Of a DNA stretch of 64,000 nt, positions 4,857 to 30,051 are shown in pieces (within the stretch, counting starts at the first letter, position 1; every line of letters starts with the position of its first letter). Origin of the DNA: Rhizaria sp. SCN 62-66 (lineage: Eukaryota); contig MEDY01000012.1 in NCBI GenBank assembly GCA_001724265.1, positions 124,001 through 188,000 on the forward strand. The letters run 5' to 3'. Both the position numbers and the translations under genes were made by a program. The notes below the pieces were generated by a model that saw nothing but the letters and a program-made list of their open reading frames with translations, did not search any database and was not told the DNA's origin.

Positions 4857-4920
4857 TTACTGCGCACCGAAGGGGTTCCTGCGGCCGCCCTGCTTCCTCG
4901 GCGGCATGCCACTGATCTGT

Positions 4921-4953
<33 letters not shown>

Positions 4954-7900
4954 GACTCGGGCAGAGACGACGACTGCGTGTCATGCGACTGCGACGGGGA
5001 GTGGTGTCCCGTGGCGGCCGCAGCAACGTGCTGCAGCGCCACCGCGCGCATGGCCTCCCTGTCGGCCAGCGTCTTGCGCAGCTGCACCGCGGCCTGGAGA
5101 GCGCCGCCACAGCGCAGCGCCAGGATGTGCATCGCCGTGCCGCTGTAGCGGGTGCTCACGGTCACTTGCTGTTTGTTGCTGCTCACGGCTCCCGACGCGC
5201 CGTCGCCATCTTCCTCAACAGCGTCAGCGTCAGCGGCCTTGCCGTCCTTGCTCTTGTCCTTGTCGTCCTTGGAGCCGGAACCGGAGACCTTGAGCACGAC
5301 CGACTGCACGGCGTCGGCAACTCCCTCGGCGTGCTTGTTCACGCTCACCGCCAGCCGGTCGATCGCGCTCGCGCGGCCCTTAACGCGCGCCGCCACGGCC
5401 GCACGGAACGCCTCCTCCTGCTTCTCGACCTCCTTGGCGCGCGCCTTGTCCGCGGCGCTGGATCCCATATTCGCCAGCGTCCGCAGACCGCCGCCCGAGA
5501 GGTAGCGCCAGAAGCCGCCACGTCGGTGTGAGGCCTCGTGGCCGCTCGCCTGCGCGTCCGTCAGCGCGGCGCCGTCGGCTGCACTAGAAGAGCTGACGCT
5601 GTTGCCGAAATAATCGTACGTGTCGACGATGTTGGCGCTCTCTGCGGGGGCGCTGCGGCCGCTGTTGCTGCTGATGCCGATGCTGGTGTCGTCCGTGAGC
5701 GTGATGCGGCTCATGAAGCCCTTCTTGCCCGCGGTAGTGTTTCCGACCGCGGTGGAGTTGTTGGAGCTGGCGGTGTGAACGGCGACTGACCCACCCCAGT
5801 AGCCGTAGGCGTCGCGGCGGTGGCCGAGGCGGTCCTGCTCCCAGTGAGTCAGCAGGTGCGACAGCGCCGGACTCACTGCCAAGCCAGAGCTCACCTTAGA
5901 AGCAACGCCCTTGCTGGCGGTCGCGGAGTTCTTGCCCTTCGCATTCTGCGCACCATGACCGTTGTTAGAGCTAGTCTGACCGTGTGCGTTATTGCTGTTG
6001 TTGTTATTGTTGAGCGCCGCGCGCACGGTCGGGCCCGGCGCGCTGCCGAGGGTGATAGTGAATTCGAGCGTGCCCCCGGGCTCCAGCGCCGCCGTCACGT
6101 TGGGTAGCTGCACAAACGAACCAACACCACCGAGCAGCTCCTTGCCGCTCGCCGCCGCGCCCGCAGTCTGCTGCGCCGCGGGCGCGCTGACGCCGCCGAG
6201 GAGGCTGTTGACGCCCGCGGCCGCGCCGTCGAAGCCGGTGCCCACAGCGGCGTTGGGTTCGCCCGCGCTCCAGGGCTGCAGCAGCGCCGCGCCGGCCGCG
6301 CCGAGCCGGCCCGCGCGGACGGCCGCGGTGACTGGCCCGGCGCCCAGCCAGAGGCGCGCGGCCAGCACGCCCTGCTCGCCCAGCGCGGCCGCGAAGCCGG
6401 CATCGATGCCGTTGTGGAGCAGCACGGCGCAGCCGGCGAGCCGCAGCGCCGCGGCGGCCGCCTCGTGGGTCGCGGGCGCGCCGGAGCCCAGCGGCGAGGG
6501 GTGCGTGAAAAGCAGCGCAAACGGCGCGGGGGCCGCGAGCGGGGCCGACAGCGGCGCCGCGGCGGCAGAGACCGGGATCAGCGGGGAAATTGACGACTCC
6601 AACAGTGCGCCGTTCGTCGCAGATGCGGTCGCCGTGGCGCTGGCGCTGTAAATCGTAGAGGGGAAGAGCTGGAGCGAGCGACGGCTGCTGCTTGCACTGT
6701 TCGCGGCGTCACTGCTGCTCACGGCCACGGACTGAGGGGGCACAGTGGAGAGGACAGTCTCGGCCGCTCCACCGGTGGCAGCGCTGCTGGTGACGCCCAC
6801 CACAGGAATAGGAACATAGCTGGTCGCGCTCGTCGACTTGACCGCAACGCCGCTCGCGACACCGCTGCTGGCGGTGGTGCTTGGAGGGACCGCGGGCAGC
6901 GAGTCCGGCTGGAAGCGGCTCAGCCCTCGGCGCGCGATCGCATAGGCTAGCGATGTCATCGCGCTGATGCTGCCGCCGACACTGACCCGGTTGGCGCCAA
7001 CAGTCGCACTCGCCCCAGAGAGCGCGCTCGCCGCGCTACCAGCAGAGGCGGAGTTGCTGTTGTTGTTGTAAACCGCGGTGGAGGCGGCCTCGAGGCGGAG
7101 CCGCGCCTCGGACTCGGCGGCCGCGCGGGCCAGCGCCGCGGCGGGCGCCACGGACGGGGTCGCGCCCGCCCATTCGCCCCAGTACGGCGCGAACGACGGC
7201 ATCGCGGCACGGCTGCCACTGCTGTTGCTGCTGTTGTTGAGCAGCGTGGTTGTGGGCCCCGGGGAGATGAAGGCCGAGGCGGGGATGCAGGGCATGTCGG
7301 AGCCGAACAGGAGCGGGATCTGCGCCCCGTCCAGGGGCTTCACGCCGCGCGCCGAGGTGTTGCTATGGTAAGCACCTGCAGTTGCAGTGGCAGCGGTGTC
7401 ACCCGCAGATGAGGCTGGTGAGGATGAGGATGAGGAGGTTGCCTCACTCGAGAGGCTGCTGCCGCCGAGCGTGGGCCACGCGGGGTGTGGCGTGTAAACC
7501 GGCAGCCGCGCCGCCGCCGCCGCAGAGGCCTCGGCCAGGCGCGCGCTCACGGTCACTGCACCGGCCACCGTGCTCACGGTCACTTTACCGACCTCCGCGA
7601 GGCTCCCAGTGTTGACGTTGGCGCTGGCGTTGGGGAACAAGTACGCGTTGAGATCGCCAGTGACGCTTGAGCTCGCGGTGATATTCGCGTTATGGTTCGC
7701 AGTCAGGTCCTTGGTGACCGTGGTGACCCCGCCCTCTTGGCTCACGGTCGCTGCGCGGCCGCCGTCGACGACGCGCCACACGCCGTCCAGGTCCGCGGTC
7801 AAGTCGCGCGCAGCCGCAGAGCCCGGCGCGGGGACGCGCGAACGGTGCGCGCGCGTCGACAGCGACAGGGCCGTGGCGGCGAGCGCGGGCAGCGACAGCG

Positions 7901-10297
7901 CCGTCTGGAAGCGGTCCGCGCGCAGCGGTGCCAGCAAGGGAGAGCTGGGAGGGTACGACGGCAGCGTGACCTGGAACCAGCCCTTGCTCTCGGTGGAGCT
8001 CGCGGCGCTTGCGCTGCTCTCAGCGCTGTTACCAGAAGACGGGGGCTTCACGGCGGGCATGGTGATGGTGATGCCCTTCTCCGCCTCCACGATAGGCGAC
8101 CGCAGGTCTCCCGACGCCGCGCTCGCGAAGGCCACGAGCGGGGACGCAGCAGCGACCGTGAGCAGCGGGAACGCGGCCGAGAGCGCGTACGGGTCCGCGC
8201 AGGCGCCCGCGGCGACCGGGCTCGGGTTCGCGAGGGGCGCGGACGAGGTAAGCGATGAGGACGTCAGCAGCACCGTCTGGCGGGAAGTGAGGCCGCCCGG
8301 GGCCAACGCCGCGGAAGCTAGGTCGCGCGCGAAGTGGGCCAGCACCCACTCGCGGACATCGCCGGCCTCGTTGACCGCAATATCACCCTCGCTAGCGCTG
8401 GTGCTGGCGTTGGCGTTTGTTCTGGTGCTCAGGCCCGTGCTCGAGTCCGCGTGTGGGAACACCTTGGCTCCCACGGCCTGGAAGGCGGCGACGTAGCCCT
8501 GCGCCTCGAGCGCCACGAAGTCGGCGCGCGAGGCGGGCACAACGAGGACCGTGGGCGCGGCCAGACTGAGATGCCCGACCCAGTCCGCGGGCGACCGCGA
8601 GGCGTAGAGCTGCACGCAGTGCGCCGCGAGGGGCGCAAGCTGAGCGAAGCCGCCCTCGATGACGGCGCCGGCTACGGTCGGCGGCAGCGGCGCGAACCCG
8701 GACACGGCCGCGGCGCTCGCACCGGCACTAACAACAGCCGAGCCACTCTTATCACCCTTGCTGTTGTTTGTGGTGAGCGCGAGGCTGGCTGCGTTTTGGT
8801 TGAGGAGCACGCGCACGAGCGGCGGGAAGCGCGCCTGCTGCGCGTAGGCCGCCCTCTCCGCCTGCGACAGCGAGGCCAGCGGCGGGGTGCGCACGGTCAC
8901 CGCAACGCGGCGGTCAATGCTGCCGGGACCCACCAGCACGGGGTCCACCTCGGCCAGGTCGAAATGCAGCAGCTTGGTCAGTGAGAAGGCATCCAGGTCG
9001 GGCCGCAGACACGCTTCGGCATACTCGTTGAGTAGGTCCGCGTGCTGCGGGCGGCCCTGGAGACGGAGCAGCTCGGCGATGGCGCCGTTGCCGCTAAAGG
9101 TGCAGTACTCCAGGCCCGCCAGGTGGGCCATTTGGGTCAGGATGACGCGGTCGCCGAGAGAGAGAGCAGGCTCCGCCTCGTTCATGATGAACTCAATGCC
9201 GAAGCGAGCACCTATAGTAAAGCATAAATGACGATATATCAAAATAATTAAAGAGATTAAGAACAAAACTCATAATACACAGAAATATAAAACAAATCAC
9301 CCCCATAACTCGAAGCAGAAGGTTGACATTCTTGTAAGAGTGCGAAATCTATCTCGTATTGCATACCTGGACGCGCGGCGGTGCTGGCCTTAATCTCGGG
9401 CCAAATGTACCACCAAAGGTCTTGCGCGCTGACGCCGGGCCTGAGCGCGCCCGCCAGGTCCACCAGCACGGCGTCGGCGACGGTCCACGTGAGCGGCTCG
9501 CCGGCCAGCGCGGCCGCGGCCTGCATAGGCGTGACCGCGAGGCCCAGCGCACCCGCGGCCCCGAGCGCGGCGGCGGGGCGCTGCGCGGACGCGGCGTGCG
9601 TGGCCAGCGTAAGCGTGCCCGGGACGGCGAGGGAGAGCTGCGCGTCCACGGGGCTCAGGAAGGCCGGGGCGACCGCGGCGGCGAGCCCCAGCGCGGGCAG
9701 CGCGAGCAGCGCGTCGTCGGCCGCACGGTGCGCATGTGCTGTCGCAGTGGCGGAGTTAGAGCGCGTGACCGCAAGTGCCGCGCGTTGCGCCTGGCCCTAG
9801 CCAAAGGCGCGGTAGTGGGAAAGCACCGATGGCAGGGAGAGGTCGTCTGTGGCGACGCGTGTGGGCAGCAGCTGCACGTTGCCGGTGACGGCGAACGAGG
9901 ACGGCTCCACCGAGTGCATGACCATGATTTTGTCGGTGAGTGAGAGGCGGCGGTCGGAGGAGCGGCGGAAGATGAGCAGGCGGTCCAGCATGCGCATAAG
10001 GACGCGGTTGTAGTCGTACATGTCGAGCGCGCGCGAGACGGCGCCGGTGTCGGTGTGCGAGTGCGCAAGCGCGGGGCTCTCGCTTCCATAGGGCGACAGA
10101 GGCACAGGGGCCGCGGAGGCCGGTGGGGGCAGCGTGTCGCGCGAGATGACCTTGACGCCACGGGAAGGAACAGAAACCACGCCGTGGCTGTGATGCGGTC
10201 CGGAAGTAGCCGATGAGAGCGCAACCGCGGCGACGCGGTGGCTACGGGAGGCAGCGGTAGCCGCAACGCGCGGCGAGTGGGCAGCCAACCCGTACAT
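4857..10297 (-). CDS. Degenerate mitochondrial-type aconitase homologue (about 1761 aa), probable pseudoenzyme; in-frame TAG at 9797-9799
   Basis: Exons 10297-9367 and 9211-4857 (TAA). Presequence-like N-terminus. Colinear aconitase blocks: RRLSLTDKIMVMH, LLPTRVATDD, PGTLTLAT, LAGEPLTWTVADAVLVDLAGALRPGVSAQDL, LSLGDRVILTQMAHLAG, FDLAEVDPVLVGP, swivel-domain AALGEQGVL and LRCGGAL. ORFs 9797..10297 and 9257..9649 are the same frame, separated only by one TAG. Confidence 0.75.
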
Positions 10298-10671
10298 CGA
10301 TCTATAGAAACAGGTGTATGATTTAGAAACATATTATTTAAGAAGTATATTTTCCCAAAACGTTAAATTCTATTGCACTCTGACACGTCGATGTACACGA
10401 TCAAAATCTCCCATTAGCTAGCTTTGAATGTAGGGCTCTCTCTTCCGCAAACAGTGACGATACAGGCCGCACACTTGCTGCAAATAGGAAACAAGCATAA
10501 GAACGTCGAGACGACTTTGAGACAAAGAGAACCAAGCTTTGTAAGACAAACTATTATGTATTTGATGAAACTAAAAAACATAGTAAAATAACCTATACCC
10601 AACTCCCCCTCCTGTCAACGCAACATCATGAAATGATATTGATAACTCATCTATCACACGTCATTGTAGAC

Positions 10672-13517
10672 TTACATGCGCTCGATGGAGGTGATGCCGA
10701 GGACGTAGAGCACGCGCTCGAGCATGATGGCAATGGCCTGGATGAAGACGACCTTGGTGGGCAGCGCCTCGGGGGCGACGGCCGTCAGGCGCACGACCTC
10801 GTACCAGGACGAGAAGGACTGCGCCATGGCAAAGCCGAAGTCGCACACGGGCGACGGGTTGTTAGCCGCGGTGGCCTGCTCGATGACGGCCCAGAAGCGC
10901 GACATGTGCAGCAGCACGGCGCGCTCCGTGGGCTCGGTGAGGTACTTGTTGAAGTCGACGGCACTCTTAAACGCCACGCCGGCGGGAGTGGTGATGAACT
11001 TGCGGAAGTCGAAGCGGGTCTTCTCGTCGCCGGTGACAAAGTCAGCCATGATCTGCTCCTGCGTCAGCGCCACGCCCGTGGTGGTCGTGAAGGCGAGCAG
11101 CGCGCGCACAAAGTCGAACTTGGGACCGTCGTAGCTCTCGCGCGCGACCAGGATCGAGTTGATGCGCGCGAAGGCGTACATGAGGTAGGGACCGGTGTTG
11201 CCGGTGTTGTTGGTCCACTTGTCCATCTCGAACACGATGTCCTTGGCGGTGTCATGGTTGAGCATGCCGTACTTGATCGACGCCACAGCGACGCGGCGGA
11301 TGGCCTCGGGGCTGAGCGTGTTGTTCTTGTTGAACTTCTCGTTGAGCACGCGCTCCATCTCGCGCTTGAGCTGCGAGAAGAGCAGCACGTTGCCCTTGCG
11401 CGACGACATGCGGCCCGACGGCAGCACGACGACGCCGTAGGGGATGTGGACGCACTTCTTGGCCTGCTCGTAGCCACAGAGCTGAAGCACCTTGAAGACC
11501 TGCTGGAAGTGGTGCGTCTGCGCCGCGTCGACGATGTAGATGCTTTTGTCGATCTTGTACGAGTCGAACTTGTGCTTGGCCAGCGCGATGTCCTTGGTGG
11601 CGTAGAGGCCCGCACCGTCGGACTTGAGCAGGACGCAGATGCCGAGGTTGTGCTCGGACAGGTCGGCGACCACGGCGCCGTCCTTCTTGACCAGCTTGCC
11701 CTCGTCGAACCACTGCGGCGGAAAGAAAAAGCAAATAAACAACAACAAAAAACACAAAAGACTCATTGTGAGATTTGAAAATGAAGACAGATGGAGCATG
11801 AATACGCAAGATAATGAAGGATTAGTACAGTCCTATATTTCGAGTGCGTACCTGGGTAACGACGGCGCGGGACGGCTCCGAGACCTCGGACTCGGTGAAG
11901 TCGTGGTCGAAGCGGCAGTCGAGCCACTTGTAGATAGCGTGGAACTCGTCCAGCGACCACTGGCCCGTGCGGCGCCACAGCGCAACCTGGTCGGGCACGT
12001 TGTGCTCCAGAGCGAGGAGCACGTCAGCGGCCTACAAGACAAGAAAGCAGAATGAAAGTGACAATAAAACCAGGTGTCAGCCTACGAACCTACAAAATAT
12101 TTAAACACATACACATCGAATACTTTCAACTTTACAGGGAAAACGACGGATTCATAAAGATCAGATCTAGTAGAGAGCGTACCTGCTTCTTCATGGCGTT
12201 GAAGACCTCCATGACGGTCTTGCCCTCGGGCACAGTGTCCTTGCGGCCCAGCTCGGCGAGGCACACACCCGAAACGGGGTTGCAGCCGTTGAGAAGCTTG
12301 ATCTGCTTCGCGGCGGACGCGGCGGCGGACGCGGAGGCGCCCTTCTTGCTGGCCTTCTTGGGCGCGGCGGCCGCGGCGTCGGCAGCGGGCGCGGCGTCGT
12401 CGTCGTCGCCGCCGCCGCCGAGCTCGGCCTCGGCGAGCATGACGCCGCACGAGTCGACGCCCAGCATGTCCTTAGGCGCGATCACGCCCATCTTCTTGGT
12501 GAGCTTGGCGCCGACGGGCAGGTACGCCACGTAGTCACCGACCTCGTAGCCCGTGCCGCCGCAGACGACGTCTGCAGTGGTGCCCTTGGCGTCGACTTCA
12601 ACCTTGCACAGGTGCCAGTTGGCCGGCGCCTCGGGGTTCGGGTGCGGGCCCTTGGCGACGACCTTGGCGGCGATGACCACGGCCCAGGGCATCGACGTGT
12701 AGGTCGAGATGTCAAGCAGGTCGACGGCCTTGGTGTACAGGTCACCCAGGAACTCGGCGCGCGCCGCCGCCGGGATCGTCTCGAGGTCGTCCAGCGACTT
12801 GAGCGGGTACACCGAGGCCGGGTCCGCGGCGTCGAAGACCTTGCCCTCGGCCGCGGCCTTCTGCGCGAGCGGGAGGTAGATCTGCTGCAGGTACCAGAGG
12901 CACTTGGCGACGTGCGCGCCTTCGTCGCCGAAGTAGTTGACGGCGACGACCTCGTGGCCCGCCTGCTCGTAGAGACGCACAAGCGAGTCGCCCAGCGCGG
13001 CGTTGCGCATGTGGCCGACGTGGAAGGCCTTGTGCGTGTTGGGCTGCGAGTACTCGATCATGACCTTGTCCATACCGGGGATGCGCGTGGGCGCCACGAA
13101 GTCGCCGAACACGGTGCCCCAGATAAGCTGCGAGTGGAAGTCGGGCGTGAAGGTGAAGTTGACGAACGCGCCGGACGTCGTCACGGACTGGAGCACCGAT
13201 ACGCCGTTGAGGGTCAGGCCCTCGGCGGCGGGCATCTCGCGGATCGCGGACGCCACGGCGTCGGCGATGTTGTTCGGGTTCACGTCGAAGCCCATGCTCT
13301 CCTTGAGCTCGGCGGTGCGCGGCTTCAACACGCGCATGGCGAAGTGGCAGGGAAGCACGTAGTCGCCGTGGCCGGCAGTCTTGGGGCGGTTGATCTCCTT
13401 GCAGAGGTCAGCAGCGGCGAAGTCGGCCGCGAACTTGGTCTTGAAGAAGTCCGAGATGAATGCCGCGAGGGTCTCCTTCGCGACAGTCGCCGTGTCGCGA
13501 ACAATCTGCATCGACAT
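10672..13517 (-). CDS. RARS: Arginyl-tRNA synthetase (851 aa) with an inserted tRNA-binding OB-fold
   Basis: Exons 13517-12183, 12031-11852, 11712-10672 (TAA). IEYSQPNTHKAFHVGHMRN (HIGH motif), LLKSDGAGLYATKDIA, RMSSRKGNV (KMSKS equivalent), GNTGPYLMYAFARINSIL, C-terminal LGITSIERM. Confidence 0.95.
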
Positions 13518-14326
13518 AGACAGCTATGCACGGTGCGATGTAATCGTTATAGGAGATTATGTTGGAAGATGTGAGCGGATGAGAGTAATGAAACGCGATA
13601 ATGCAAGCCGAACAAAGGGCGCGCAGGAACCTCCGGTGTGGCCCCGCGCGAAGCTCTGCGCAGAACGTGATAAGGCGCCGGTAGGCGCCGCCGAAATATA
13701 TTATTATATGCCCGCCAAATATGCACCATTATCAATAATTCAAATGTGGATAGAACGATAAGAAGGCGCAATGTAGGCGTGTTTCATGCAGTGCCGCGGC
13801 TTAACATTGCCCCTCCTCTTCGCGCCGACCACCGACAGACTTATGAGCCCACCACAAACTCGATCCGACCCAACCACACACTGCGACACGCTAAACTTCG
13901 TGCATATCTTATCACAGCAGGGGTCAAACAAAACTCTTGCAGTTAAAACTGATAATTAATGATGCATTGACAGTGTGGTATAGATCAAAGTCCTGTTATT
14001 ATTGCGATTCACACTTGTTGAGCATGTGTTCTGGCAATTGCTGTGCTTTCGGCAACATGAAAAACAATTCGTTGCCACCCGCTCGCCGCCCCACCGTTTG
14101 AACCGGAACCTCCTACTTCGAGGACTTCACAGCGCTACCAACACTTCGAACTAATTCAGTGTCCATGAATCATTGTTTATTTCCGGGCTAGTTATCTGTT
14201 TCCTGATTTGTTGGCCCATGTTAGGGGCAGCATCATCCGATTTTCATGCAACTTAAAGAAGTTCCCTCTCTCATGGTTCCATCGCCCACCTCTTTCATCT
14301 TGTGCCATCTAAAGCACCTCCGCGTT

Positions 14327-16738
14327 ATGAGTTATTTCCCGCGCGAGCACCCAATCGCCGTTGGCGACTCCGATCCTGAGCACTCGATTGAACAGTGGGC
14401 GGCGACCTACCCAGTTCCGCGCTGGGTGGCCGAGAAGACGTACAAGCAGTGCTATCACTGCCAAGATACGTTTAAGTCCAACCAGCAGCACAACTGCAGG
14501 CTCTGCGGCGAGATCTTCTGCTCCCGCTGCACCGGTAAGTACCACCTGCCAGACCGCTACGACCTTAAGGGCAAGACGGGCCTCATGCGCGTCTGCTTCG
14601 GTTGCGTCATCACCTGCAACCGGCTGCGCCAGGCCACCTGCGGGCTCCCGCTCGACCGCGTCAACAAGACCATCTCGCCGCCACACTGGCAGGCCCCTGA
14701 GCACTTTGTAGCCTGCAACAAGTGCGCCAAGAAGGACCGCAGCCCGCACAACTGCCGGCTCTGCGGGCTGCTCTACTGCGAGACCTGCGCCAGCAAGCTC
14801 AATATGGAGGTACGTCCCGGTCAATAGCTGCAACTAGATTTGAAACATGAAGCTACTGAAAGAAGTTCACTTATGTTTTGAACGTAACTTAAACAACAGT
14901 TCCATAAGTTTTAACATGTAATTTTAACATTGTTTTGCTTTCTGTCAATTCACTTGACTGCCACGCTTTGCTCGCCTCAGATCCCGATCACGTTCAACAA
15001 GAAGAACAAGACGCCCCCGCACCGCGTCTGCGACCAGTGCCGATACCGCGTCGTCGCGGGCGCCCTGCTGCGCGGCCCGCATGACCCGCCTTCGCCGAGC
15101 CAGTCGCAGTCCTTGCCGCCCGTGCAGGACATCTCCGCCATCCTCGCCTCGGCCCACGGCCACTCCCTTGCTGCGGGGCCCGGGACCATGCCCTCGACGC
15201 CAAGCCGCAACTCGGCCTCCGGCAACGGTGCCACAATCAGTGGCACACGCCCGCGCACGCTGCCATTTGGCTCCTACTCAAGCGCCAACGGCAGCGGCTC
15301 GCAGCGCGACCTCCTCGCTTCACAGGCGCTTCACGCGCAGCAGCAGCAGCAGCGCGGGTCGGGCTCGCGTGTAAGCAACGCCGCGGCCGGCGAGTACCCC
15401 GAGTCTCCCCGCGTTGCGGTCTGCTACGAGAGCGGCGCGCCTGCCGTCCTCCTCTCGCCACTCAACGGCGCTAACACCAATACGAACGCAAACGCAGGCT
15501 ACAGCGAGAACGCCGGCTTCGTGGCGAGCGGCGACTTTTACAACACTAACGGCACGCTCTCGCTCGCCGCGCTCGCCGACCTCCAGCGCCAGGCTGCTGC
15601 AAGTACCCCCACGAGTAACCCCACAGGTACTGGCGCTGCGAATGAGAGCCCGCTGGACCCCACATCCGCGCTAGCTCAAGAGCTAGCCGCGATGGGCATC
15701 GCCAACCCCGGCTTTGTGCCGGGCCACACGGCTGCCGCAACAGCGCCCCCGCTCATGTCCACTGCCAAGGCTCTAGCAAACGCCAACGCAGCTAACGCTA
15801 GCGCGGTGATGACTGTGCCCGTTGTCCCGCCCGTGCCCGCCGTGGCCCCCGCCGCGCCTCCGATCCCGGCCGCCCCCGCCGACGACTCCGTCGCGACCAC
15901 GATTGCAGGCGCGGCTGCTGCGGGCAGTGACGACGCGGTACCCGTGGGTGGCTCGACGTGCATCCACATCAAGCGCATCGGGCGCAGCACGCCGCTGGCC
16001 GTGATTGACCTGGACCCCGAGTGCACGCTCGACACGCTCAACAACATCCTGCTGGCGCGGTGCCCCGAGCTGCGGTTCAAGTCGCTGCAGTACATCGTGC
16101 GCGGCGAGCCCGTGAGCAAGAACTTCTGGGACGCGATGAAGGTCAAGTACTGCCGCGGGGAGGTTCACGTCGCCGAGGCAGGGCTCGCGCTGATGCCGCG
16201 CATGGTCCTCTCGGGCGCAAACGCCGCAGCAGCCACGAACAACACTAGCACGACGCTGACCGCGGCGGTGACGCCTTCCGCGACAACCCCGACCGCCGCG
16301 GGCGCTAAGACAAGGGACGAGAACGCTGTTCCCGCGGCTGGCGACAGCGGCGTGAGCGTTGACGTCACCGAGAGCGGCGAGCTTGACAACGCTGATGACG
16401 ACGGCAACGACACCGAGAACGCCGTCACTCAGCTCGCAGCCGGCGCGACCTCCGGTGCCGCCGGCGTCAAGGCCAGCCGCGCTGCGGGCACCAGCAGCGG
16501 CGTGACCCGCAGCGCGACTGCCCTGGGCGCGCGCACCGAAGCCGAGCCCGCGTACGCGCAAAAGACCAAGCCCGCCGCGGCGCTGCCCGCGCTGCCACAG
16601 GCCCCCGCTGGCGCCGGCGAGGCCAACGCGGCTACTGGCGGCGCTGGCGGCGTGGCGGGCGGCATGACTGTGGCGCAGCGCGCGGCCGCCTTTGCGCGCG
16701 GCGCGCCAGTGCCGTTTGAGAACGAGCAGCGCAAGTAA
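14327..16738 (+). CDS. Tandem FYVE-type zinc finger protein with low-complexity region and possible ubiquitin-like domain (about 746 aa)
   Basis: Exons 14327-14809 and 14981-16738 (TAA); start could be 14246. Two 8-Cys fingers: W..CYHC..HNCRLCGEIFCSRC..RVCFGC and W..CNKC..HNCRLCGLLYCETC..RVCDQC, the second split by the intron. A globular segment near 15955-16175 has a beta-grasp-like pattern. Confidence 0.85.
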
Positions 16739-17692
16739 GCGGCTCTACACGCGCGTGTCGCGGCCACACATGAGAACGACATATAGTAGTCGCAGAGTTT
16801 CTGTTCAAGTTTGTTGTGATGAGTATTAAAGTAAGTCAACGCTGGTGTTGGGTAGGTTATATTGATGATGATACCAGTAATGTAATATTAGTAGTTTAAT
16901 TTAACACGCATTTTGTTTTTGTTTCTCAGTTTCGTTTTGTATTCCAGTTTGTGAACGCGTATTGCATTTCACTTCCTTCATGCGTTATTTTTGTTCTTGA
17001 AGTACATCGAACAACACATACTAGGATGAGCAATACAAAGCAGTGTTAACAGCATTTACATTAATATTTCCTTGTGTCTGTGTTGGTGTGTGAACAATTC
17101 ATCGTTTTTATTGTGAGCTGGCGTAATTGACAAAGTCGTCAGTGGTAGTACGAAAAGCAACAACAAAGACAACAGTCGCAGCTGTCATACGCAGCATCTA
17201 GTGTGAGTGTGACTATCGGGGTTGGCGTCCATGTACGGCGAAAGAGTGAACTTGCGTAGTTTTTGCGTGCTCGCGCGCCGTAAGTGGTGAAGGTCGAAGC
17301 CTACTTACTGACATCCACGAAGGTGCGAAGGAGTATCTTACGAAAAGATATATCGCACCTCCGCTTGGCATACTAATCAAGTAAATCATGTAGAGAATGT
17401 TTAACACTTGAAGCAACAAATAAACACAACACACACAACTGTCACCATACAAATTGACCAAACCAACGTCAGATCGCAAAGAAAGCGCAACACCAAGCGC
17501 AACACCAAGACAAGCACAGCACAACCCAGTTCAGTTCAATGATACATGTAAATGACTCAAATGCATGTTGCCTTTCAGTTTTTACCCCCAAAGCAAAGTA
17601 CTGTACACGTGTACTGAGCGAGCCATCTTCTCATCATCCGGGCCTAGCAGTGACTGTTCCTGTTGCCTTGCAGTACTGACTGTTCCTGTACT

Positions 17693-18882
17693 TTACGCCA
17701 TGTTGGAAGGGGTAAGAGCAGCGCCCGCGGTGCCGCCGGGCAAAGCCTTGGGCTACTTGACGTTGATGGCGGAGATGACAGGCTTGCCCGAGCTGGCGAG
17801 TATCTGGTCCTTAGAGAGCACGCACTGGCAGCGGTTCTTCTGCGCGGCCTTGTACGCGATGCCGCCCGCAAGGCGCACGGCGGCGTAGAACGCGGTGGGC
17901 ACCGTCTTGAGGAGCAGGTTCTTGGTGTTCCTGGCGGCGGCTGAGAGGCACATCTTGAGCGCGCGATCGCTCTCCACGCGGGTTTGACCGCAGATGTCGT
18001 ACGCCTTGTCGTGGGTGTTGCAGCACTGCGTCATGGCGGCGGGCAGGAACTTGACCAACGCCTTGCTGACCGTCTTCATCGCATCGCTGCCACAGCCATT
18101 CTGCACGGTGGTTGAGCGCGGGGTGATCTCGAGGTGGTAGCCGTCGGGGCAGAAGCTCTTCTTGGCACCGCTCTGGCGTGTCGTCGTAGCCGCGGCATCG
18201 GCGGCAGCCGTGCTCTTGGCGTCGGCGGCAGCCTTGGCGACGGCAGCGCCTGCGTTCTTGATGACCGCGGTAAGCGTCGAATTGGTGGTAGGGGCCGCGT
18301 CCGAGTCAGAGTTGGTCTCGAGCAGGGCGGAGATCTCCTCCTCCACGGCGGCCTCGCTGCCGGCGTAGAGCACGTCGGCGACGTCGGTGCCGAAGTTGGC
18401 CTCCAGGTCAATGCCGGCCTCGATGGCCGCGTCGATGGTAGACTCTTGCTCAGACTCGGCCTCCATGTCGGCATCGGCGTCGGCGTCAGCGTCGGCGTCA
18501 ACCTCGGTCTCAACATCAACCTCAGCATCCATGTCAGCATCCATGTCAACCTCGGCGTCAGCCTCAGCCTCGGCGTCGGCCTCAGCAGTTGCATCGGCGC
18601 TCGCGTAAAGCTCCGCAAAAACGGCGTCCTCAGCGACCTCAGTAGAAGCAGCAAGATCGAAAGAGTAGTCCTCGACCTCAGTCGCGGTCGATCCCGCGAG
18701 TACCGCGCCTGTTGAGTGGGAGAGGGTGAAAAGAATGAAAAGGTTGAAGGAGAGTGAGACATGGAGGGCGTGACCCGATCTTCAATGTCATTTACGACGC
18801 TATAGAAGAACCAGAAGATAAAAAATCTGTTGAGTCACGTACAAATAACAGAGACAACAAGAATGAGCTTAAAAAGCTTCAT
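17693..18882 (-). CDS. Secreted group XII-like phospholipase A2, copy A (351 aa if TAG 17753-17755 is read as sense)
   Basis: Exons 18882-18843 and 18708-17693 (TAA). Signal peptide MKLFKLILVVSVICAVLAG, acidic D/E-A region, FCPDGY, NGCG, CCNTHDKAY (His-Asp), FYAAVRLAGGIAYKAAQKNRCQC. Confidence 0.85.
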
Positions 18883-20200
18883 TTCCACCTGCAGGAAAAA
18901 ACACACAAAAGGAAAGAGAAAGGAGGCGGGTGAGCGTCGTCCATCAGGGAAAGCGGTACTCGGACAGCTCTACTGCTTCAGAACAAAAGCGACAACAAAA
19001 TTTTGGACAATGAACAAACAATCCATGCAAATATGCCAGCGATAAAAGGTTGACACGCCCACAAACCGCGTTTTGACCTCGCAGATGAAGCCGCAAGACC
19101 GACCATACTCCTTTTGACACTTTTGACTAAGACGCTGGGAGTGTGCAACAGTCATAGGTGATAAATGGGTACTGGTAGCTGATGAAAATATCTCCGATCA
19201 ATGTAGTGTTACGTTATATGCGCAGTAAATAGTTGACATAAATGATGTCGACAATTTATTAGAACTAGCACCAAGCGTCGGCCATATAATTGCGTTTGTA
19301 GAGTGCGTTTGTAGTGAGATGAAGTACGTGCAAAGAGGGCTAACAGAAGAAACACAGGAGCGACTGTTTGGAATTTGTGCACAGGAGATGTGACGTCAGC
19401 TGGTGCGTTGAATGAATGAAGGGGATTCCAAGACGAGTGACAGATCGTCAACAGTCACAACACCATCTCCAAACAGCTCCAGTCCACGGATACAGACCAC
19501 GGGATACTGGGTGAAGTGAGGAAAAAACTGTGATATGTGAGTGTGGGAAGCATATATCGAAGTCGAAGAAAGAGAAATACAGAATTTAAGAACCGTTGTG
19601 CTCGCACGTGCAAATGCAACAAGAAACAACACCAGTTGTTGGCTTGTGTGGGTTCTGGCTGCACACGGAGGCAAGTCGGAGATTCTTAAAGGATGTGGAA
19701 TCTTTCGTGAACTAAAATCAGCAATAAAAAGAAGGAGAAAACACACACAAAAAAATTAAAAACATATCAATACAAATTGCCAGCACTAACACCAACAACT
19801 TAGCTGTGACGGGCACAGTAAGAGTTAAAGTAAATAGCGGCCAATCTGCCACTTCAGTGTGGGTTTGAGTTTGACACGTTGCACAACACACGCCGTCATC
19901 GTTCCTGCACTCATCTCACAAGACCTAGCATGACGTGCTGTGTTTTCAAAAAACATCAGTGTCGTGGATAGGTGTAGGAAGAGAGCACATGCGCACGTGG
20001 GAGCAACGATCAGCCCGGAAAAATAAAAAGAGAAACACAGGGGACAGGAAATTACCCAGACATCGTCTAGTCACAGACACTATTGTGTTATTGTGACTCA
20101 TTTTTGGAGCGAGAGCAATTTGTTTTAACAGGAACAAGATGGGACAGCTTCGACAACCATGAACAAGTATACGTTCGACTGTTCATCTGGTGTTTCGCAT

Positions 20201-21389
20201 TTAGAACATGGAGGCAGTCGTGTTAAATGCAGCAACCTGGGCCTTGGCCTTGGCCCTGGCCTTGGTGCCAGTGGAGGCAGTTGCGCTGGTCTTGGCGGTC
20301 TTGGCGGCCGCGGCACCAGCCGCGGCACCAGCAGCAACGCCGCCCGTGTTGATCTTGGTCGAGGCGCCGTCAGCGTTGGTGCACTTGCAGTGCATCTCCT
20401 GCGCGCTCTTGTACGCGCCGCCGCCACCAACACGGACGGCAGTGTAGAACGCCTCGGGGATGGCCTTGACGATCTTGTTGGTCGACTGGGCGGCCGCGGC
20501 GGTCAGGCACTGCTTGAGGTTATCGTCGGCCTGCTTGCGGACGAAGGGGCAGTACGAGTACTCCCGGTCGTGCGTGTTGCAGCACTCGGTGATGGCGGCA
20601 GGAAGGATAAAGTTAATGGCATGGTGGATGGACGAGTGCATCTTGGAGCTGCCGCAGCCGTTGACCTCGATCTCGACGCCGGACTTAGCCTTAACGGTGT
20701 AGCCCGCTGGGCAGAAGGACTGCGTGTGGGCGGGGTTCGCAAAAGCAGAGGCGGCGGAAGTGCCCTCGGCCTCGTGCTCGTACTCGTACTCGGCGTCAGC
20801 CTCGGCCTCATACTCAGCCTCGTTCTCGGCCTCGTACTCAGCGTCAGCGTCAGCGTCGGCCTCAGCATCAGCCTCGGACTCGTACTCGGCATCGGCCTCA
20901 GCCTCGAGCTCGAACTCAGCATCGGCATCAGCCTCAGCGTCAGCCTCGGCGTCAGCCTCAGCGTCAGCCTCAGCGTCGGCCTCGACATCAGCCTCAGCGT
21001 CGGCCTCAAACTCAGCCTGAAACTCGGCGGCGAACTCGGCCTCGGACACGAGCTCGGCAAAAACGGTGCCGTCATCGGGATGGCTGGCAGCGAGCTCGAG
21101 CTGGGAATCGTAGGCGTTAACGCCGGCGAACGCAAGAGCGCCTGTGTGGAGAAGGAGAAAGCACATTTGTGCCGTTTTTGTGTGTAGTGGTGTGAGATTG
21201 AGGATAATTTGGAGCGGTGCAGAAGAGGAAAGCAACATGTCATAATAGGGTTGCTGTCGGCACAGGACGCGAATAGTAGTTGTGATTTGATAGACTTCCA
21301 AACGATGACAGTTCATGGAATTCCGAATGCAATGGCAATATGAACGTACACACAAGCGCGGCTGCAACAATAAGCTTACAAGAGCTCAT
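20201..21389 (-). CDS. Secreted group XII-like phospholipase A2, copy B (326 aa)
   Basis: Exons 21389-21350 and 21141-20201 (TAA). Signal peptide, long EADA tract, FCPAGY, NGCG, CCNTHDREY, FYTAVRVGGGGAYKSAQEMHCKC. Confidence 0.88.
20770..21045 (-). repeat. Coding tandem repeat of about 12-bp units encoding Glu-Ala-Asp-Ala in PLA2 copy B
   Basis: Repeated tcagcctc/gcgtcagc/ggcatc units on the + strand; translation EAEFAAEFQAEFEADAEADVEADAEADAEADAEADAEADADAEFELEAEADAEY. Confidence 0.9.
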
Positions 21390-22481
21390 TTCCACTGTGG
21401 GGGATGTGATGCAAAGACGCAGGAGAAGCGGGTAAGCGTTGAGGAACAGCATACAAGGTATTTCCAGGCGACTTTCTGCAGAGTTCAAGTAGTGCACGTA
21501 ATATAATATACCCGATATATGTTTCGCTAAAGAAAATCAGATCAACGTTCTTGCCAGGCGTTGTAAGTTCGTAAACAGTTCGATAAACGAAGGAGCACTT
21601 TGGCCACGTCGCCCATCGAGGTCATCGGACCGAAAAAATGGGAACATCGACCAACCTCTTTTATGAAGATAAGCGTATAATAAAAAAAATATACCTCGCT
21701 CAAATTCCAAGTCATGTCAACGAGAGTATAAGAGACTATGTGTTGCAACTTGAACCATATTAAAAAAACACTGATAAATGCAATGCATCCAGATACATGT
21801 TGTATAGCTGTCCACTGAGTAGACGTATTGTTGGGCGCTGATTACAAACCACCTCGTATATCTAATATTATGGGAACCGGGGGTCGCACAACTTGATTGT
21901 GTCATTGGTGTCGAAGTGACTGAAGTCAAGACCATGTGATATTTGCGTGACTTAAAGCGACATGATTGAGAGAGTCAAAGCTTAATGTGTGACCTTCAAA
22001 TATCATCAAAAGCAAGCGACGTGAAATCCACGTTAGAAATGCACATTTGTAACAGGCGAGCTCTGCGTTGACGATCATACGTAGAGCTTAATTGTGATCA
22101 ATCATCCGAATAAACACACATAAACGTACAAGTGAGCAAGCACTGTGCACAATTATGGTTTATGGGAGTTAATCTTTGAAAAGAGGGATGTGGCTTTCAC
22201 TTGAAACTCTAGCTGGTCTCATCGTGCAAGTACTGACAAGAATATTATCATATTAATAAGATTGTGAATGAAAACAGACTGTGAACAACGTAGTAACAGA
22301 ACACGCGCGTCGCGGGTTGTTACAGCCGAAATTAGATGACAAGAATTAAGAGATAAGATATGGTTTAGCATTCTACAAATGCAAGGAACAAAAAATTAAC
22401 AATACACAAATCAAATCACACTGCACAGAGTAACATGAAATTTTAAGCACCACCGTCAGCGGTGCGGAGCAAAGCGAATCA

Positions 22482-23498
22482 TTACTCAAGCTTGCTCCCC
22501 GGGTTGATGCTGCTCGTGTTGCCGTCAACGGCCATGCATACACACGACTCAACCTGCGCAGTGCGGAACAGCTCGCCGCCGAGCGTCCGCACGCCCTTGT
22601 AGAACACTTCAGGGACCCGCGAGACGAGTGCGTTGGTCTAGCCGGCAACCGCGGACGTGAGGCAAGTGAGCAACTTATCGTCGGCCGCCTTGCGCAAAAC
22701 GCTGCACTTGGAGTAATCAACATCGTGCTGGTTGCAGCAAGCTGTGACAGAGGCTGGCAGAGCGTCGCGGATGAGGCCCTCGAGCCCGGGGCCGAAGTAC
22801 GAGGGGCCACAGCCGTTGGTGGTTGGACGCGAATTGGGGCGAGCAACAAGGGAGCTGCCAGTGGCGCAGTAGGACTTGTCGTATACGCGGGGGTTGTGCT
22901 TCGCCTTGTTGACCGCATCGGGGGCATCGGCCTGAGTCTCAGTCACGGACTCGGAATACGAGTTAATGAGCGCATCAAGCTCTGCCTCCAGCTCAGTGTC
23001 AGCCTCAGTGTCAGCTTCAATATCGACATTGGACCCGGCCTCGACCTCAACATCAGCCTCAGCGGCGTCAGCATCAACGTCAGTATCATCGTCTTCGATG
23101 TCGATGTCGATGCTAGCATATACCTCACTGAGCGAAGCAATGGCCGTGTCCAGCTCAAGTTCACTCTCGTGGGCAATAGCGAACGACTGCTGCGAGTCGA
23201 GCGAGTCGAGCGTCGTCGCACTTGAGAACGGGACAACAGCAACAGCACAAGCGCCTATTGAGGTGTCAAATGAAGCAAATACCAAAATGAAAACATGATG
23301 GATTCAGAGTGTCATCGCGAGTGAGATCGATTGGCAGCCACAAATGATGTTGAAAGACGCGACTTCAAGGTTTGCAAGATCGCGAGCAAGTCGACGAGTT
23401 TTCAAGTGGGTATTTAACCATGTTATACCCCGTGACAAAGGTTAATCACACCACGTACATAAAAAAGCTGCCGTGATAAGCAGCTTGCAAAAACTCAT
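22482..23498 (-). CDS. Secreted group XII-like phospholipase A2, copy C (270 aa); in-frame TAG at 22638-22640 inside the catalytic domain
   Basis: Exons 23498-23459 and 23254-22482 (TAA). NGCG, CCNQHDVDY, CLTSAVAG[TAG]TNALVSRVPEVFYKGVRTLGGELFRTAQVESCVC. The post-TAG segment aligns without gaps to copies A, B and D. Confidence 0.82.
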
Positions 23499-29179: not shown

Positions 29180-30051
29180 GGGAAGCTCAAGGGTGGAAAA
29201 CGCCCCAGGGTGGGAACGAACGAGTGGGAAAAGAGGAACTGTTAACGCGAAGAGACGGGAGAAGCTTGCGCTTTGCTAACGACGAGTGGGGGACTGTACT
29301 GCCGCAAAGTGAGGGAGTAGGGGGAAAAGCGATTGGAGAGGGAAAGCAAGGCAGGATTGAAATTAAGCGAAGATATAGATACGTCAAGGGGAGATACATT
29401 ATGCACGCATAGTCAATGCGCTATTGGCGATTGAGGCAGGGTGACTAACGTCGACGTCGTCCCTCGTTGAGGAGCTTTGTAGTGCTTTGTAGCCAAGGCA
29501 CTTATCCCCTTTCAGAAGTCGACGAAAGCGTTGCCACAAGCGTATTTAGTCGTGCATCCAGATAGAACATGTAATATTTGAATCATAGTCCCACTCTTGA
29601 GTCACATGGAAGGACAGAAATAACACTAGCATTTGTTTTCTGAGGGGGTGGTATCTCGCGGCGGCGGTTCACCGCTCACTCTGGCGCGGTTCCCAAAAAT
29701 TTCGCGAGCCTCGTCGATCGACCGATCAACAAACCCACACGTTTTGAGGCATATCTGTGTTCGGTTCGTTCCCATCGTCATTTCCTACTGGCTTTTGATG
29801 TAGAAACTTTCCAACTCTTAAATCATTAACTCATTTTTTCTTTTTCGCTTATAGTCTCGCATTGTCCTTAGCCGAGTCCTCTATTCTCCTTTTCCCACAC
29901 TGCAGCAAATCTTGCTCAGCAAGCTCGCTCGCTGCACAGCTCCCCCACCTCTTTCGGTGAGAACCAGCGTTTATCACTGCGGGTGGTGCAGCATTTTAAC
30001 CAGTTTCTGTTGTCTACGCAGCGAGTTGACAACATCCCTCTCTGAGCAACA

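What the first reader, a model, noticed from the sequence alone, without database searches (positions are those of the whole stretch)
9797..22640. Probable variant nuclear genetic code: UAG is a sense codon (most likely Leu) while UAA and UGA remain stops
Seen: three genes have a single in-frame TAG followed by intact-looking coding sequence (aconitase-like 9797-9799, PLA2-A 17753-17755, PLA2-C 22638-22640). No modelled exon has an in-frame TAA, TGA or frameshift. Of 17 visible termini, 16 are TAA or TGA (8 and 8), and the only apparent TAG stop (PLA2-A) runs on to a TAA 20 codons later. The 3' contexts (GGC, CCC, ACC) share no readthrough motif. Homologous columns favour a hydrophobic residue: Leu in mitochondrial aconitase, Val twice in paralogue D, though one column also has Thr and Ser. 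Inference: Gln is the main alternative, but the many CAG/CAA poly-Gln tracts contain no TAG although it is one transition away. A Leu codon reachable mainly from TTG would be rare, as observed (3 in roughly 16,000 codons by my estimate). Known: UAA and UAG usually share a meaning in nuclear codes; UAG-only reassignment is exceptional (rhizarian exLh UAG=Leu and Iotanema UAG=Gln, Panek et al. 2017; some ciliates). Three sites is a small sample.
Basis: partly seen in the sequence, partly recalled or inferred. Interest (0 to 1): 0.93.

Follow-up and report, generated by a model that had tools for sequence, protein, structure and literature searches.

The report
Likely UAG sense codon in protist
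Three genes of an uncultured wastewater protist carry an in-frame TAG followed by sequence that still looks like protein, which suggests this organism reads UAG as an amino acid, although three sites in one 64 kb window cannot prove it.

Summary
All three TAGs are on the minus strand at the stated coordinates. Independent contig assemblies from other sequencing runs also carry them.

- **Only in-frame stops:** they are the only stops on the sense strand of modelled genes with coding-like sequence on both sides. No TAA or TGA qualifies.
- **Two are clearly internal.** The 22638 TAG sits inside a PLA2G12 domain, with 11 family-invariant residues after it. The 9797 TAG sits in a conserved motif of a 1761-codon aconitase-like gene. 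Its full-length orthologue has Val at that column.
- **The third is less clear.** The 17753 TAG could be an ordinary stop, but the 19 codons after it look coding, unlike the sequence after every TAA/TGA terminator.
- **Terminators:** 17 modelled genes end in TAA (10) or TGA (7).
- **Homologues** show V, L, V, V, T, S at the TAG columns. Leu is much the best fit among the one-step neighbours of TAG.

Cautions:
- 63% of one-step nonsense mutations in this GC3-rich coding sequence would give TAG.
- No tRNA, eRF1, whole genome or RNA over the sites was available.
- Relatives at about 50% ArgRS identity appear to use TAG as a stop.

I put about 0.6 on UAG being decoded as an amino acid. The organism groups with Paulinella (Rhizaria) in a single-gene tree. 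UAG-to-Leu is already known in another rhizarian, so this would be a new member of a known kind.

The parts
9797..9799 (-). In-frame TAG, codon 167 of the aconitase-like gene
   Evidence: It lies between residues that are identical in orthologue P0124, which has Val here. Bovine mitochondrial aconitase has Leu in a weak profile alignment. A single NF005558 aconitase HMM stretch, residues 130-306, spans it.
9367..10297 (-). Aconitase-like gene, exon 1 (ATG at 10297; 310 codons plus 1 base)
   Evidence: Pfam Aconitase match to profile positions 135-194 downstream of the TAG. 59% identity to P0124 over 243 residues across the TAG.
9212..9366 (-). Intron (GT..AG, 155 nt, AT-rich, phase 1)
   Evidence: Sequence. 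The spliced junction matches the uninterrupted orthologue sequence.
4857..9211 (-). Aconitase-like gene, exon 2, ending in TAA at 4857-4859
   Evidence: 1470-codon open frame. Collinear with P0124 to the shared C-terminus. Aconitase profile 207-321 continues here.
17753..17755 (-). TAG near the 3' end of PLA2-A: either a sense codon or the terminator
   Evidence: It aligns with Val in paralogue D and Thr in B. It is kept in the diverged strains X4 and X8.
17693..17752 (-). 19 sense codons plus TAA after the PLA2-A TAG
   Evidence: GC 0.70 and coding score 0.32. The 17 TAA/TGA terminators give GC 0.28-0.60 and scores of -0.65 to 0.08.
17756..18708 (-). PLA2-A main exon (PLA2G12 domain, acidic repeats)
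   Evidence: Pfam PF06951, E 3.6e-10. The acceptor site and frame were checked.
18843..18882 (-). PLA2-A 40-nt first coding exon (start of the signal peptide)
   Evidence: A conserved 40-nt phase-1 first exon followed by a GTACG donor is present in all 4 paralogues.
22638..22640 (-). In-frame TAG inside the PLA2G12 domain of PLA2-C
   Evidence: The Pfam domain covers residues 145-258 and spans the X at residue 222. The column has T, S and V in paralogues A, B and D. Eleven invariant family columns, including two Cys, follow it.
22482..23254 (-). PLA2-C main exon, ending in TAA TGA at 22479-22484
   Evidence: The catalytic His-Asp motif is intact.
23459..23498 (-). PLA2-C 40-nt first coding exon
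20201..21389 (-). PLA2-B paralogue (ends in TAA)
24844..26147 (-). PLA2-D paralogue (3 exons, ends in TAA); has Val at both PLA2 TAG columns

Best explanation
[quoted passage not shown] The organism is an uncultured, GC-rich, intron-bearing eukaryote from bioreactor and wastewater metagenomes, probably a rhizarian.

**Inferred mechanism (not shown here).** A tRNA with anticodon CUA decodes UAG. The simplest source is a mutated copy of tRNA-Leu(CAA), because leucyl-tRNA synthetase does not read the anticodon. eRF1 would also have weakened recognition of UAG.

**Usage.** UAG would be a very rare sense codon here: 3 in about 16,000 codons, all in fast-evolving genes. That fits a young or inefficiently decoded reassignment.

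**Which residue.** It is most likely aliphatic. Leu is the most economical choice, but the residue is not determined.

**Shown:** in-frame TAGs with conserved coding sequence on both sides, present in independent assemblies, and no modelled gene that must end in TAG.

**Inferred:** that the TAGs are translated, which residue they give, and the tRNA and eRF1 changes.
For: 1. **Only in-frame stops.** The three TAGs are the only sense-strand stops with coding-like flanks on both sides. TAA and TGA give 0 such cases in about 16,000 modelled codons, and no frameshift is needed in any gene model.
2. **Aconitase-like gene is otherwise intact.**
   - It has an ATG, a canonical phase-1 intron and a 1470-codon second exon.
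   - It is collinear to its end with a 1488-aa orthologue, P0124.
   - The TAG lies between four identical residues on each side, where the orthologue has Val.
3. **PLA2-C is otherwise intact.** It keeps its first exon, splice phase, catalytic His-Asp and all 11 family-invariant columns after the TAG, including two Cys.
4. **The PLA2-A tail looks coding.** The 19 codons after its TAG score 0.32 with GC 0.70. The maximum after the 17 TAA/TGA terminators is 0.08 with GC 0.60. The tail also partly aligns with paralogue D's tail.
5. **Terminators.** TAA 10, TGA 7 and TAG 0 of 17, although TAG is 14-21% of stop trinucleotides elsewhere in the window. P(0 of 18) is 0.018 at a 20% share.
6. **Homologue residues.** The TAG columns carry V and L; V; and T, S and V. 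Summed BLOSUM62 scores among the one-step neighbours of TAG are Leu +4, Ser -3, Tyr -8, Gln and Lys -9, Glu -10, Trp -16. The likelihood ratio for Leu-coding against nonsense from a random precursor codon is 19.
7. **The TAGs are real DNA.** They appear in independent contig assemblies, and the 17753 TAG is kept in two diverged strains.
8. **Precedent.** A UAG-only reassignment to Leu, with UAA and UGA kept as stops, is documented in the sainouroid rhizarian exLh (PMC5304391, sections 6 and 8 read). The window's RFC3 falls in a 100/99 clade whose only named members are two Paulinella species, which are Rhizaria.
Against: 1. **Small sample.** There are only three sites, and one (PLA2-A) can be a plain terminator.
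2. **TAG is the expected nonsense codon.** It makes up 63% of the one-step nonsense target in this codon usage. 'All TAG' is therefore expected about 1 time in 4 for three random nonsense hits.
3. **The affected genes may be dispensable.** Two are members of a four-copy tandem family. The third is a fast-evolving aconitase-like protein that lacks the catalytic Asp-Ser-His in the alignment.
4. **Strain differences after the TAGs.** Of the listed differences between strains, 3 of 3 downstream of the TAGs change the amino acid. In ArgRS the figure is 3 of 12. All three lie in poorly conserved tails.
5. **No TAG in conserved genes.** ArgRS, RFC3, UBC and the WD40 gene have none. ArgRS of 13 relatives has no in-frame stop either.
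6. **Relatives use TAG as a stop.** At 49-53% ArgRS identity, 3 of 11 termini examined are TAG. Two of these are convergent genes 300 nt apart in L004. Any change of code is therefore lineage-restricted.
7. **Missing components.** No tRNA gene is in the window. There is no eRF1 and no RNA contig over any TAG.
8. **Val, not Leu.** The nearest homologue has Val at all three columns.
9. **Selection effect.** The window was flagged by a scan of many windows.
Confidence: 0.6

Rival explanations
1. The organism uses the standard code. PLA2-A simply ends at TAG. PLA2-C and the aconitase-like gene carry recent nonsense mutations, as young pseudogenes or loss-of-function alleles fixed in this bioreactor lineage.
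For: - TAG makes up 63% of the one-step nonsense target.
- PLA2-C is one of four tandem paralogues.
- The aconitase-like protein looks like a non-catalytic, fast-evolving protein, with 38% overall identity to its orthologue against 73-78% for ArgRS and RFC3.
- 3 of 3 listed strain differences downstream of the TAGs change the amino acid.
- Relatives use TAG as a stop.
- Code variants are rare a priori.
Against: - It needs two or three independent premature stops in 17 genes while about 16,000 codons show no frameshift and no TAA or TGA.
- Every other feature of both genes is intact: splice sites, invariant residues and collinearity to the C-terminus.
- The aconitase-like column is aliphatic in homologues. 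A one-step nonsense there needs the rare TTG precursor, which is 5% of TAG precursors.
- The PLA2-A tail is an outlier for coding signal.
- No other gene ends in TAG.
Confidence: 0.27
2. UAG is still a stop codon genome-wide, but it is leaky. Near-cognate or suppressor decoding gives enough read-through for these three genes. This would be an ambiguous, context-dependent UAG rather than a full reassignment.
For: - It is compatible with the very low frequency of in-frame TAG and its restriction to low-constraint genes.
- The PLA2-A TAG sits 19 codons before a TAA, like known C-terminal extension read-through.
Against: - The three downstream contexts (GGC CAG, CCC AAG, ACC AAC) share no motif.
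- A stop at codon 167 of a 1761-codon gene would need efficient read-through.
- 0 of the other 16 genes end in TAG.
Confidence: 0.08
3. The TAGs are corrected in the mRNA by RNA editing. One example would be A-to-I editing of UAG to UIG, read as Trp, as recalled from sexual-stage editing in filamentous fungi. No call or paper here covers this.
For: It would select for TAG specifically. There is no direct evidence here.
Against: - Trp is the worst-fitting residue at the three columns, with a summed BLOSUM62 score of -16.
- The precedent is fungal, while this organism groups with Rhizaria.
Confidence: 0.03
4. The TAGs are sequencing or assembly errors.
For: None found.
Against: Independent contig assemblies of other runs reproduce all three TAGs (X3). 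The 17753 TAG is also present in two diverged strains, X4 and X8.
Confidence: 0.01

Closest known systems
Rhizaria sp. exLh (Sainouroidea) nuclear code: UAG = Leu, with UAA and UGA as stops (Panek et al. 2017, PMC5304391; abstract, sections 6 and 8 and passages read)
   Same: - Only UAG appears in frame.
- UAA and UGA are the terminators.
- UAG sits at hydrophobic columns.
- The host is probably a rhizarian.
- In exLh, UAG was rarest in highly expressed genes. Here it is absent from the conserved housekeeping genes.
   Different: - exLh has 384 in-frame UAGs in 71 genes, 95% of hyperconserved sites being Leu. Here there are 3 in about 16,000 codons, and the nearest homologues have Val.
- Kinship with Sainouroidea was not tested, as the window has no 18S.
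- The paper reports that the sainouroids Guttulinopsis and Rosculus appear to use the standard code, so the change is patchy even there.
Phyllopharyngean ciliates with UAG = Leu or Gln and UAA as the preferred stop (McGowan et al. 2024, PMC11687900; abstract and outline only)
   Same: UAG-only reassignment found in metagenome-derived genomes of uncultivated eukaryotes, with suppressor tRNA(CUA) genes identified.
   Different: - They are ciliates, an unrelated supergroup.
- Their reassigned UAG is in widespread use.
- Their tRNAs were found. None could be looked for here.
Iotanema spirale (Fornicata): UAG = Gln, UAA as stop (PMC5304391)
   Same: The meaning of UAG is decoupled from that of UAA. 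UAG is a minority codon, about 8% of Gln codons per section 8.
   Different: Gln fits the three columns here poorly (-9 against +4 for Leu).
Ordinary nonsense alleles or young pseudogenes in tandem gene families
   Same: A single premature stop in an otherwise intact paralogue. TAG is the commonest nonsense outcome in GC3-rich genes.
   Different: Three cases in 17 genes, no frameshifts, an aliphatic column in a conserved motif, and no TAG terminators.

Membership tests
Nuclear code variant with UAG reassigned to sense and UAA/UGA kept as stops (exLh type) | In-frame UAG inside conserved coding sequence, with homology continuing in the same frame | tested here: met
   Two clear sites and one near-terminal site. 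The sample is only 3 sites.
Nuclear code variant with UAG reassigned to sense and UAA/UGA kept as stops (exLh type) | UAG absent, or nearly so, as a bona fide terminator across the genome | tested here: inconclusive
   0 of 17 termini in the window, or 1 of 17 if PLA2-A ends at its TAG. P is about 0.02 to 0.1 at a 20% share. No genome is held.
Nuclear code variant with UAG reassigned to sense and UAA/UGA kept as stops (exLh type) | UAA and UGA used as terminators and absent in frame | tested here: met
   TAA 10 and TGA 7 termini (corrected). Three are checked by homology: ArgRS against its relatives, the aconitase-like gene against P0124, and RFC3 by its Pfam C-terminal domain. 0 in-frame TAA or TGA.
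Nuclear code variant with UAG reassigned to sense and UAA/UGA kept as stops (exLh type) | One consistent amino acid at conserved columns aligned with UAG | tested here: inconclusive
   The columns show V and L; V; and T, S and V. Aliphatic residues are favoured: Val 11, Ile 8, Thr 5, Leu 4. Three sites cannot fix the residue.
Nuclear code variant with UAG reassigned to sense and UAA/UGA kept as stops (exLh type) | A cognate tRNA with anticodon CUA | not testable with these tools
   No tRNA gene is in the window by ARAGORN or Rfam. The rest of the genome is not available.
Nuclear code variant with UAG reassigned to sense and UAA/UGA kept as stops (exLh type) | UAG present in mature mRNA and decoded into protein | not testable with these tools
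   PolyA-RNA contigs of run X10 lie on both genes (9958-10349 and 22185-22503) but none crosses a TAG. No proteomics is available.
Pseudogene or loss-of-function allele | Further lesions (frameshifts, other stops, lost splice sites, lost invariant residues) or relaxed constraint after the stop | tested here: inconclusive
   No further lesion is found in either gene. However, 3 of 3 listed strain differences after the TAGs are non-synonymous, all in variable tails.
Programmed stop-codon read-through | A shared downstream context or structure at the read-through stops | tested here: not met
   The downstream codons are GGC CAG, CCC AAG and ACC AAC, with no common motif. RNA structure was not examined.

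The most novel reading that the evidence does not exclude
This would be an uncultured rhizarian caught at an early stage of a UAG stop-to-sense reassignment, to Leu or another aliphatic residue. UAG would already be purged from gene ends but would make up only about 0.3% of the corresponding sense codons, confined to fast-evolving genes. Relatives at about 50% ArgRS identity still terminate at UAG. That would be a second, possibly independent, rhizarian case and a natural snapshot of how a stop codon is captured.
Probability: 0.4. Interest if true: 0.8.

Novelty: new member of a known kind. Interest (0 to 1): 0.62.

Why it matters
Nuclear codes in which UAG changes meaning while UAA stays a stop are few. 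The papers seen here report one rhizarian, one fornicate and some ciliate lineages.

A further case with genomic DNA in hand would allow several things:
- The predicted tRNA(CUA) and eRF1 changes could be looked for directly. Panek et al. could not do this from transcriptomes.
- The very low UAG usage would bear on the debate between codon capture and an ambiguous intermediate.
- Gene callers that use the standard code split or truncate this organism's proteins. The database entries for these genes already stop at the TAG: P0123 has 166 aa and P0128 has 215 aa.

Tried and rejected
- Whole genome: none is held.
- The look-up of encoding contigs is declared closed and was not called.
- Supplementary files of papers were not requested. 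Tables S1-S4 of PMC5304391 might give codon-usage detail.

**Searches that gave nothing useful**
- tRNA or other RNA genes in the window: none.
- Word-index protein search with the aconitase-like exon 1: 0 hits. It was swamped by low-complexity words and limited by its length window.
- Word-index search with the PLA2-C domain: only the window's own truncated protein, so no PLA2 orthologues were seen.
- phmmer of exon 1 against PDB: 0 hits. A profile with the orthologue gave only E 0.12.
- Viral contigs and prokaryote genome contigs searched for the orthologue's DNA: nothing.

**Metagenome scan with ArgRS**
- It did not return the window's own long contig, only a 1.2 kb identical piece (L003).
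- It returned a 3 kb contig of the closest relative (L001, 73%) that holds ArgRS alone.
- So the orthologous codons at the TAG columns could not be read.

**Read laying**
- No RNA contig covers a TAG.
- No spliced joint is shown at the modelled introns among the 15 of 118 joints listed.
- One of the 12 X4 differences near 22638 and all 3 near 9797 are not listed.
- Coverage gaps are not evidence of anything.

**Ideas considered and dropped**
- The TAGs lie in introns. The flanks are GC-rich and homologous, while introns here are AT-rich and 130-170 nt long.
- The aconitase-like gene starts downstream of the TAG. The orthologue and the HMM both align across it.

Full report
**What the window is**

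- It is a GC-rich eukaryotic metagenome contig. Coding third-position GC is about 0.8-0.9.
- It has short (130-170 nt) AT-rich GT-AG introns.
- Runs from 10 studies of bioreactor, wastewater and sludge metagenomes hold at least part of the queried 7 kb. Four runs hold half or more of its sampled words.
- No whole genome is held.
- I modelled 17 genes, using Pfam, codon statistics and homology:
  - an unannotated 670-codon ORF;
  - a 1761-codon aconitase-like gene;
  - ArgRS (3 exons);
  - a FYVE protein;
  - four tandem PLA2G12-like genes (A-D);
  - a WD40 protein;
  - unannotated ORFs of 1062 and 3151 codons;
  - a UBC enzyme;
  - RFC3;
  - an RWD/DFRP protein;
  - two further unannotated ORFs;
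  - a giant patatin-like gene that runs off the window.

**The observation**

It scored codon usage for up to 40 codons on each side of every stop, in all six frames.
- Seven stops passed. The three on the sense strand of a gene are exactly the three TAGs.
- Looser thresholds added two true terminators, two 5'-UTR stops and one intronic stop on the sense strand.
- So in about 16,000 modelled codons there are 3 in-frame TAGs, 0 in-frame TAA or TGA, and no frameshift.
- Other TAGs that close long ORFs are intronic or out of frame after a splice: 14825, 11833, 12082 and 43798.

The TAGs are not assembly errors.
- X3 contigs, from another study, cover all three sites with 0 differences.
- X4 and X8, strains 0.3-0.55% diverged, keep the 17753 TAG.
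- X4 very probably keeps 22638, since 11 of its 12 differences are listed and none is at the TAG.
- 9797 in X4 is unknown.

**Site 1: aconitase-like gene, 9797**

- The gene has an ATG at 10297 followed by an Arg/Ala/Ser-rich N-terminus.
- It has a phase-1 intron at 9366-9212 with GT..AG.
- Its second exon is 1470 codons and ends in TAA.
- A full HMMER scan of 1.84 billion representatives gave 5 hits:
  - two are the window's own fragments, which end or begin near the TAG;
  - one is a 1488-aa orthologue, P0124;
  - the other two are weak, at E about 6-7e-4.
- P0124 is 59% identical over 243 residues in one ungapped stretch across the TAG. Four residues are identical on each side and it has Val at the TAG column.
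- P0124 confirms my splice junction and is collinear to the shared C-terminus.
- An aconitase HMM (NF005558) aligns residues 130-306 in one stretch across the TAG, at E 0.001.
- A profile of the window protein plus P0124 aligns over about 300 positions with bovine mitochondrial aconitase. That protein has Leu at the column, but the match is weak (E 0.12).
- The protein lacks the Asp-Ser-His of the active site in that alignment, so it is probably not a working aconitase. It is nevertheless a conserved, maintained gene.

**Site 2: PLA2-C, 22638**

- The Pfam PLA2G12 match covers residues 145-258 and spans the TAG at residue 222.
- In the four-paralogue alignment the column has T, S and V.
- Eleven invariant columns follow the TAG, including two Cys. 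The catalytic His-Asp lies before it.
- All four paralogues share a 40-nt phase-1 first exon that starts the signal peptide, and PLA2-C's copy is intact.

**Site 3: PLA2-A, 17753**

- The TAG lies after the domain, 19 sense codons before a TAA. On its face it could be the terminator.
- However, those 19 codons have GC 0.70 and a coding score of 0.32.
- The first 19 codons after each of the 17 TAA/TGA terminators score -0.65 to 0.08, with GC 0.28-0.60. After PLA2-A's own TAA the values fall into that range.
- One row of that table (56110) was later shown to be intronic. It was not an extreme value.
- The tail partly aligns with paralogue D's tail, which has Val at the TAG column. That match is short and only suggestive.

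**How unusual is this under the standard code?**

It is less unusual than it looks in two respects.
- With this codon usage, 1935 of 3056 one-step nonsense paths (63%) lead to TAG. 'All TAG' is therefore weak evidence.
- TAG is 14-21% of stop trinucleotides outside the reading frame. At a 20% share, 0 of 18 TAG termini has P 0.018 and at most 1 of 18 has P 0.10. With the corrected n of 17 the values are about 0.02 and 0.12 (hand calculation).

It is more unusual in other respects.
- The standard code needs two or three independent premature stops in 17 genes that are otherwise free of lesions.
- The aconitase-like column is aliphatic in homologues. Only 5% of TAG's one-step precursors are Leu codons.
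- Weighing homologue residues by BLOSUM62 gives a likelihood ratio of 19 for 'codes for Leu' over 'nonsense from a random precursor'.

Several observations count against a sense reading.
- The three listed strain differences downstream of the TAGs are all non-synonymous. In ArgRS, 3 of 12 are. All three lie in unconserved tails.
- No TAG occurs in the conserved housekeeping genes.
- The affected genes are plausibly dispensable.

**Which amino acid?**

- Summed BLOSUM62 scores over the six homologue residues rank Val 11, Ile 8, Thr 5, Leu 4, Met 3 and Ala 0.
- Lower down are Ser -3, Tyr -8, Gln and Lys -9, Glu -10 and Trp -16.
- Val is mechanistically unlikely, because valyl-tRNA synthetase reads the anticodon. 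That point is recalled and comes from no call.
- Leucyl-tRNA synthetases generally do not use the anticodon as an identity element, as Panek et al. argue (passage read).
- Leu is therefore the most economical assignment, but three sites do not decide it. Gln is disfavoured.

**Relatives and placement**

The metagenome scan with the ArgRS first exon found 85 related stretches and kept 80. I examined 13 of them by tblastn, the ORFs of 6 and 11 gene ends in 5.
- The closest is L001: 73-76% identity, a 3 kb contig with ArgRS only, ending in TAA.
- No ArgRS has an in-frame stop.
- In L004 (53%), two convergent long ORFs 300 nt apart end in TAG, with further stops 5 and 14 codons later.
- In L008 (49%), a 2179-codon ORF ends in TAG.
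- So TAG closes 3 of the 11 termini examined in these more distant relatives. Any reassignment is restricted to the window's own lineage.

I also built an RFC3 tree of 31 rows. These were the window, the 9 best unnamed hits and 21 named hits, chosen from the 120 listed.
- The window pairs with a 74-78% identical environmental sequence (support 100/98).
- It sits in a 12-row clade (100/99) whose only named members are Paulinella micropora and P. chromatophora.
- This is a single-gene placement in Rhizaria/Cercozoa. It does not test affinity to Sainouroidea.

**Comparison with what is known**

- Panek et al. 2017 (PMC5304391; abstract, sections 6 and 8 and passages read) describe the sainouroid rhizarian exLh. 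It has 384 in-frame UAGs in 71 genes. Its termini are UAA 56 and UGA 15, and UAG is read as Leu. They also describe Iotanema, with UAG read as Gln.
- They note that Guttulinopsis and Rosculus seem to keep the standard code.
- McGowan et al. 2024 (PMC11687900; abstract and outline only) report UAG as Leu or Gln in phyllopharyngean ciliates, with suppressor tRNAs.
- My literature search on Sainouroidea, Rhizaria and UAG from 2017 on matched 47 papers and listed 20. None of the 20 listed describes a second rhizarian case.
- The present case would be the same kind of code, in a probably rhizarian host, with a far lower UAG usage.

**Verdict**

| Explanation | Probability |
|---|---|
| UAG decoded as a sense codon | about 0.6 |
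| Standard code with recent nonsense alleles | about 0.27 |
| Leaky read-through, RNA editing or assembly error | the remainder |

It is a strong lead. The binned genome and the existing polyA RNA runs could settle it quickly.

Noticed in passing
window 4857-10297 (-): A 1761-codon aconitase-like protein. Its N-terminus is collinear with mitochondrial aconitase, but the catalytic Asp-Ser-His is replaced in the alignment. Long Ala/Ser-rich insertions follow. It is conserved end to end with a 1488-aa environmental orthologue, P0124. It is probably a non-catalytic aconitase-fold protein of unknown role.
   Followed up: partly
window 17693-26147 (-): A tandem array of four secreted PLA2G12-like genes (A-D). 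Each has a 40-nt phase-1 first exon, long acidic Asp/Glu/Ala repeats and a C-terminal phospholipase domain. The repeats attract very high depth from unrelated contigs when reads are laid.
   Followed up: partly
window 10672-13523 (-); L001, L002, L004, L005, L008: This ArgRS carries a weak match to the tRNA_bind domain (PF01588, E 0.0036) inside its first exon and has two introns. The ArgRS of five environmental relatives is a single uninterrupted ORF of 858-995 codons. Every one of these ArgRS genes ends in TAA after a C-terminal Met.
   Followed up: partly
window 54768-63999 (-): The 2629-codon ORF and the 454-codon ORF are one giant patatin-like phospholipase gene. They are joined by an AT-rich intron of about 130 nt near 56028-56158, and the gene runs off the window's end.
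   Followed up: partly
window 33653-43108 (+) and 30046-33234 (+): Open frames of 3151 and 1062 codons with no Pfam match. The 1062-codon ORF begins with a signal-peptide-like sequence.
   Followed up: no
L004 9020-9324: In a relative at 53% ArgRS identity, held as 11.5 kb of a 112 kb contig, two convergent long ORFs both end in TAG 300 nt apart. TAG is clearly a stop in that lineage.
   Followed up: partly
whole window: The organism is deeply divergent from named taxa. The best named RFC3 hits are two Paulinella species at 49% identity. It has a sister lineage at 73-78% protein identity in other metagenomes.
   Followed up: partly
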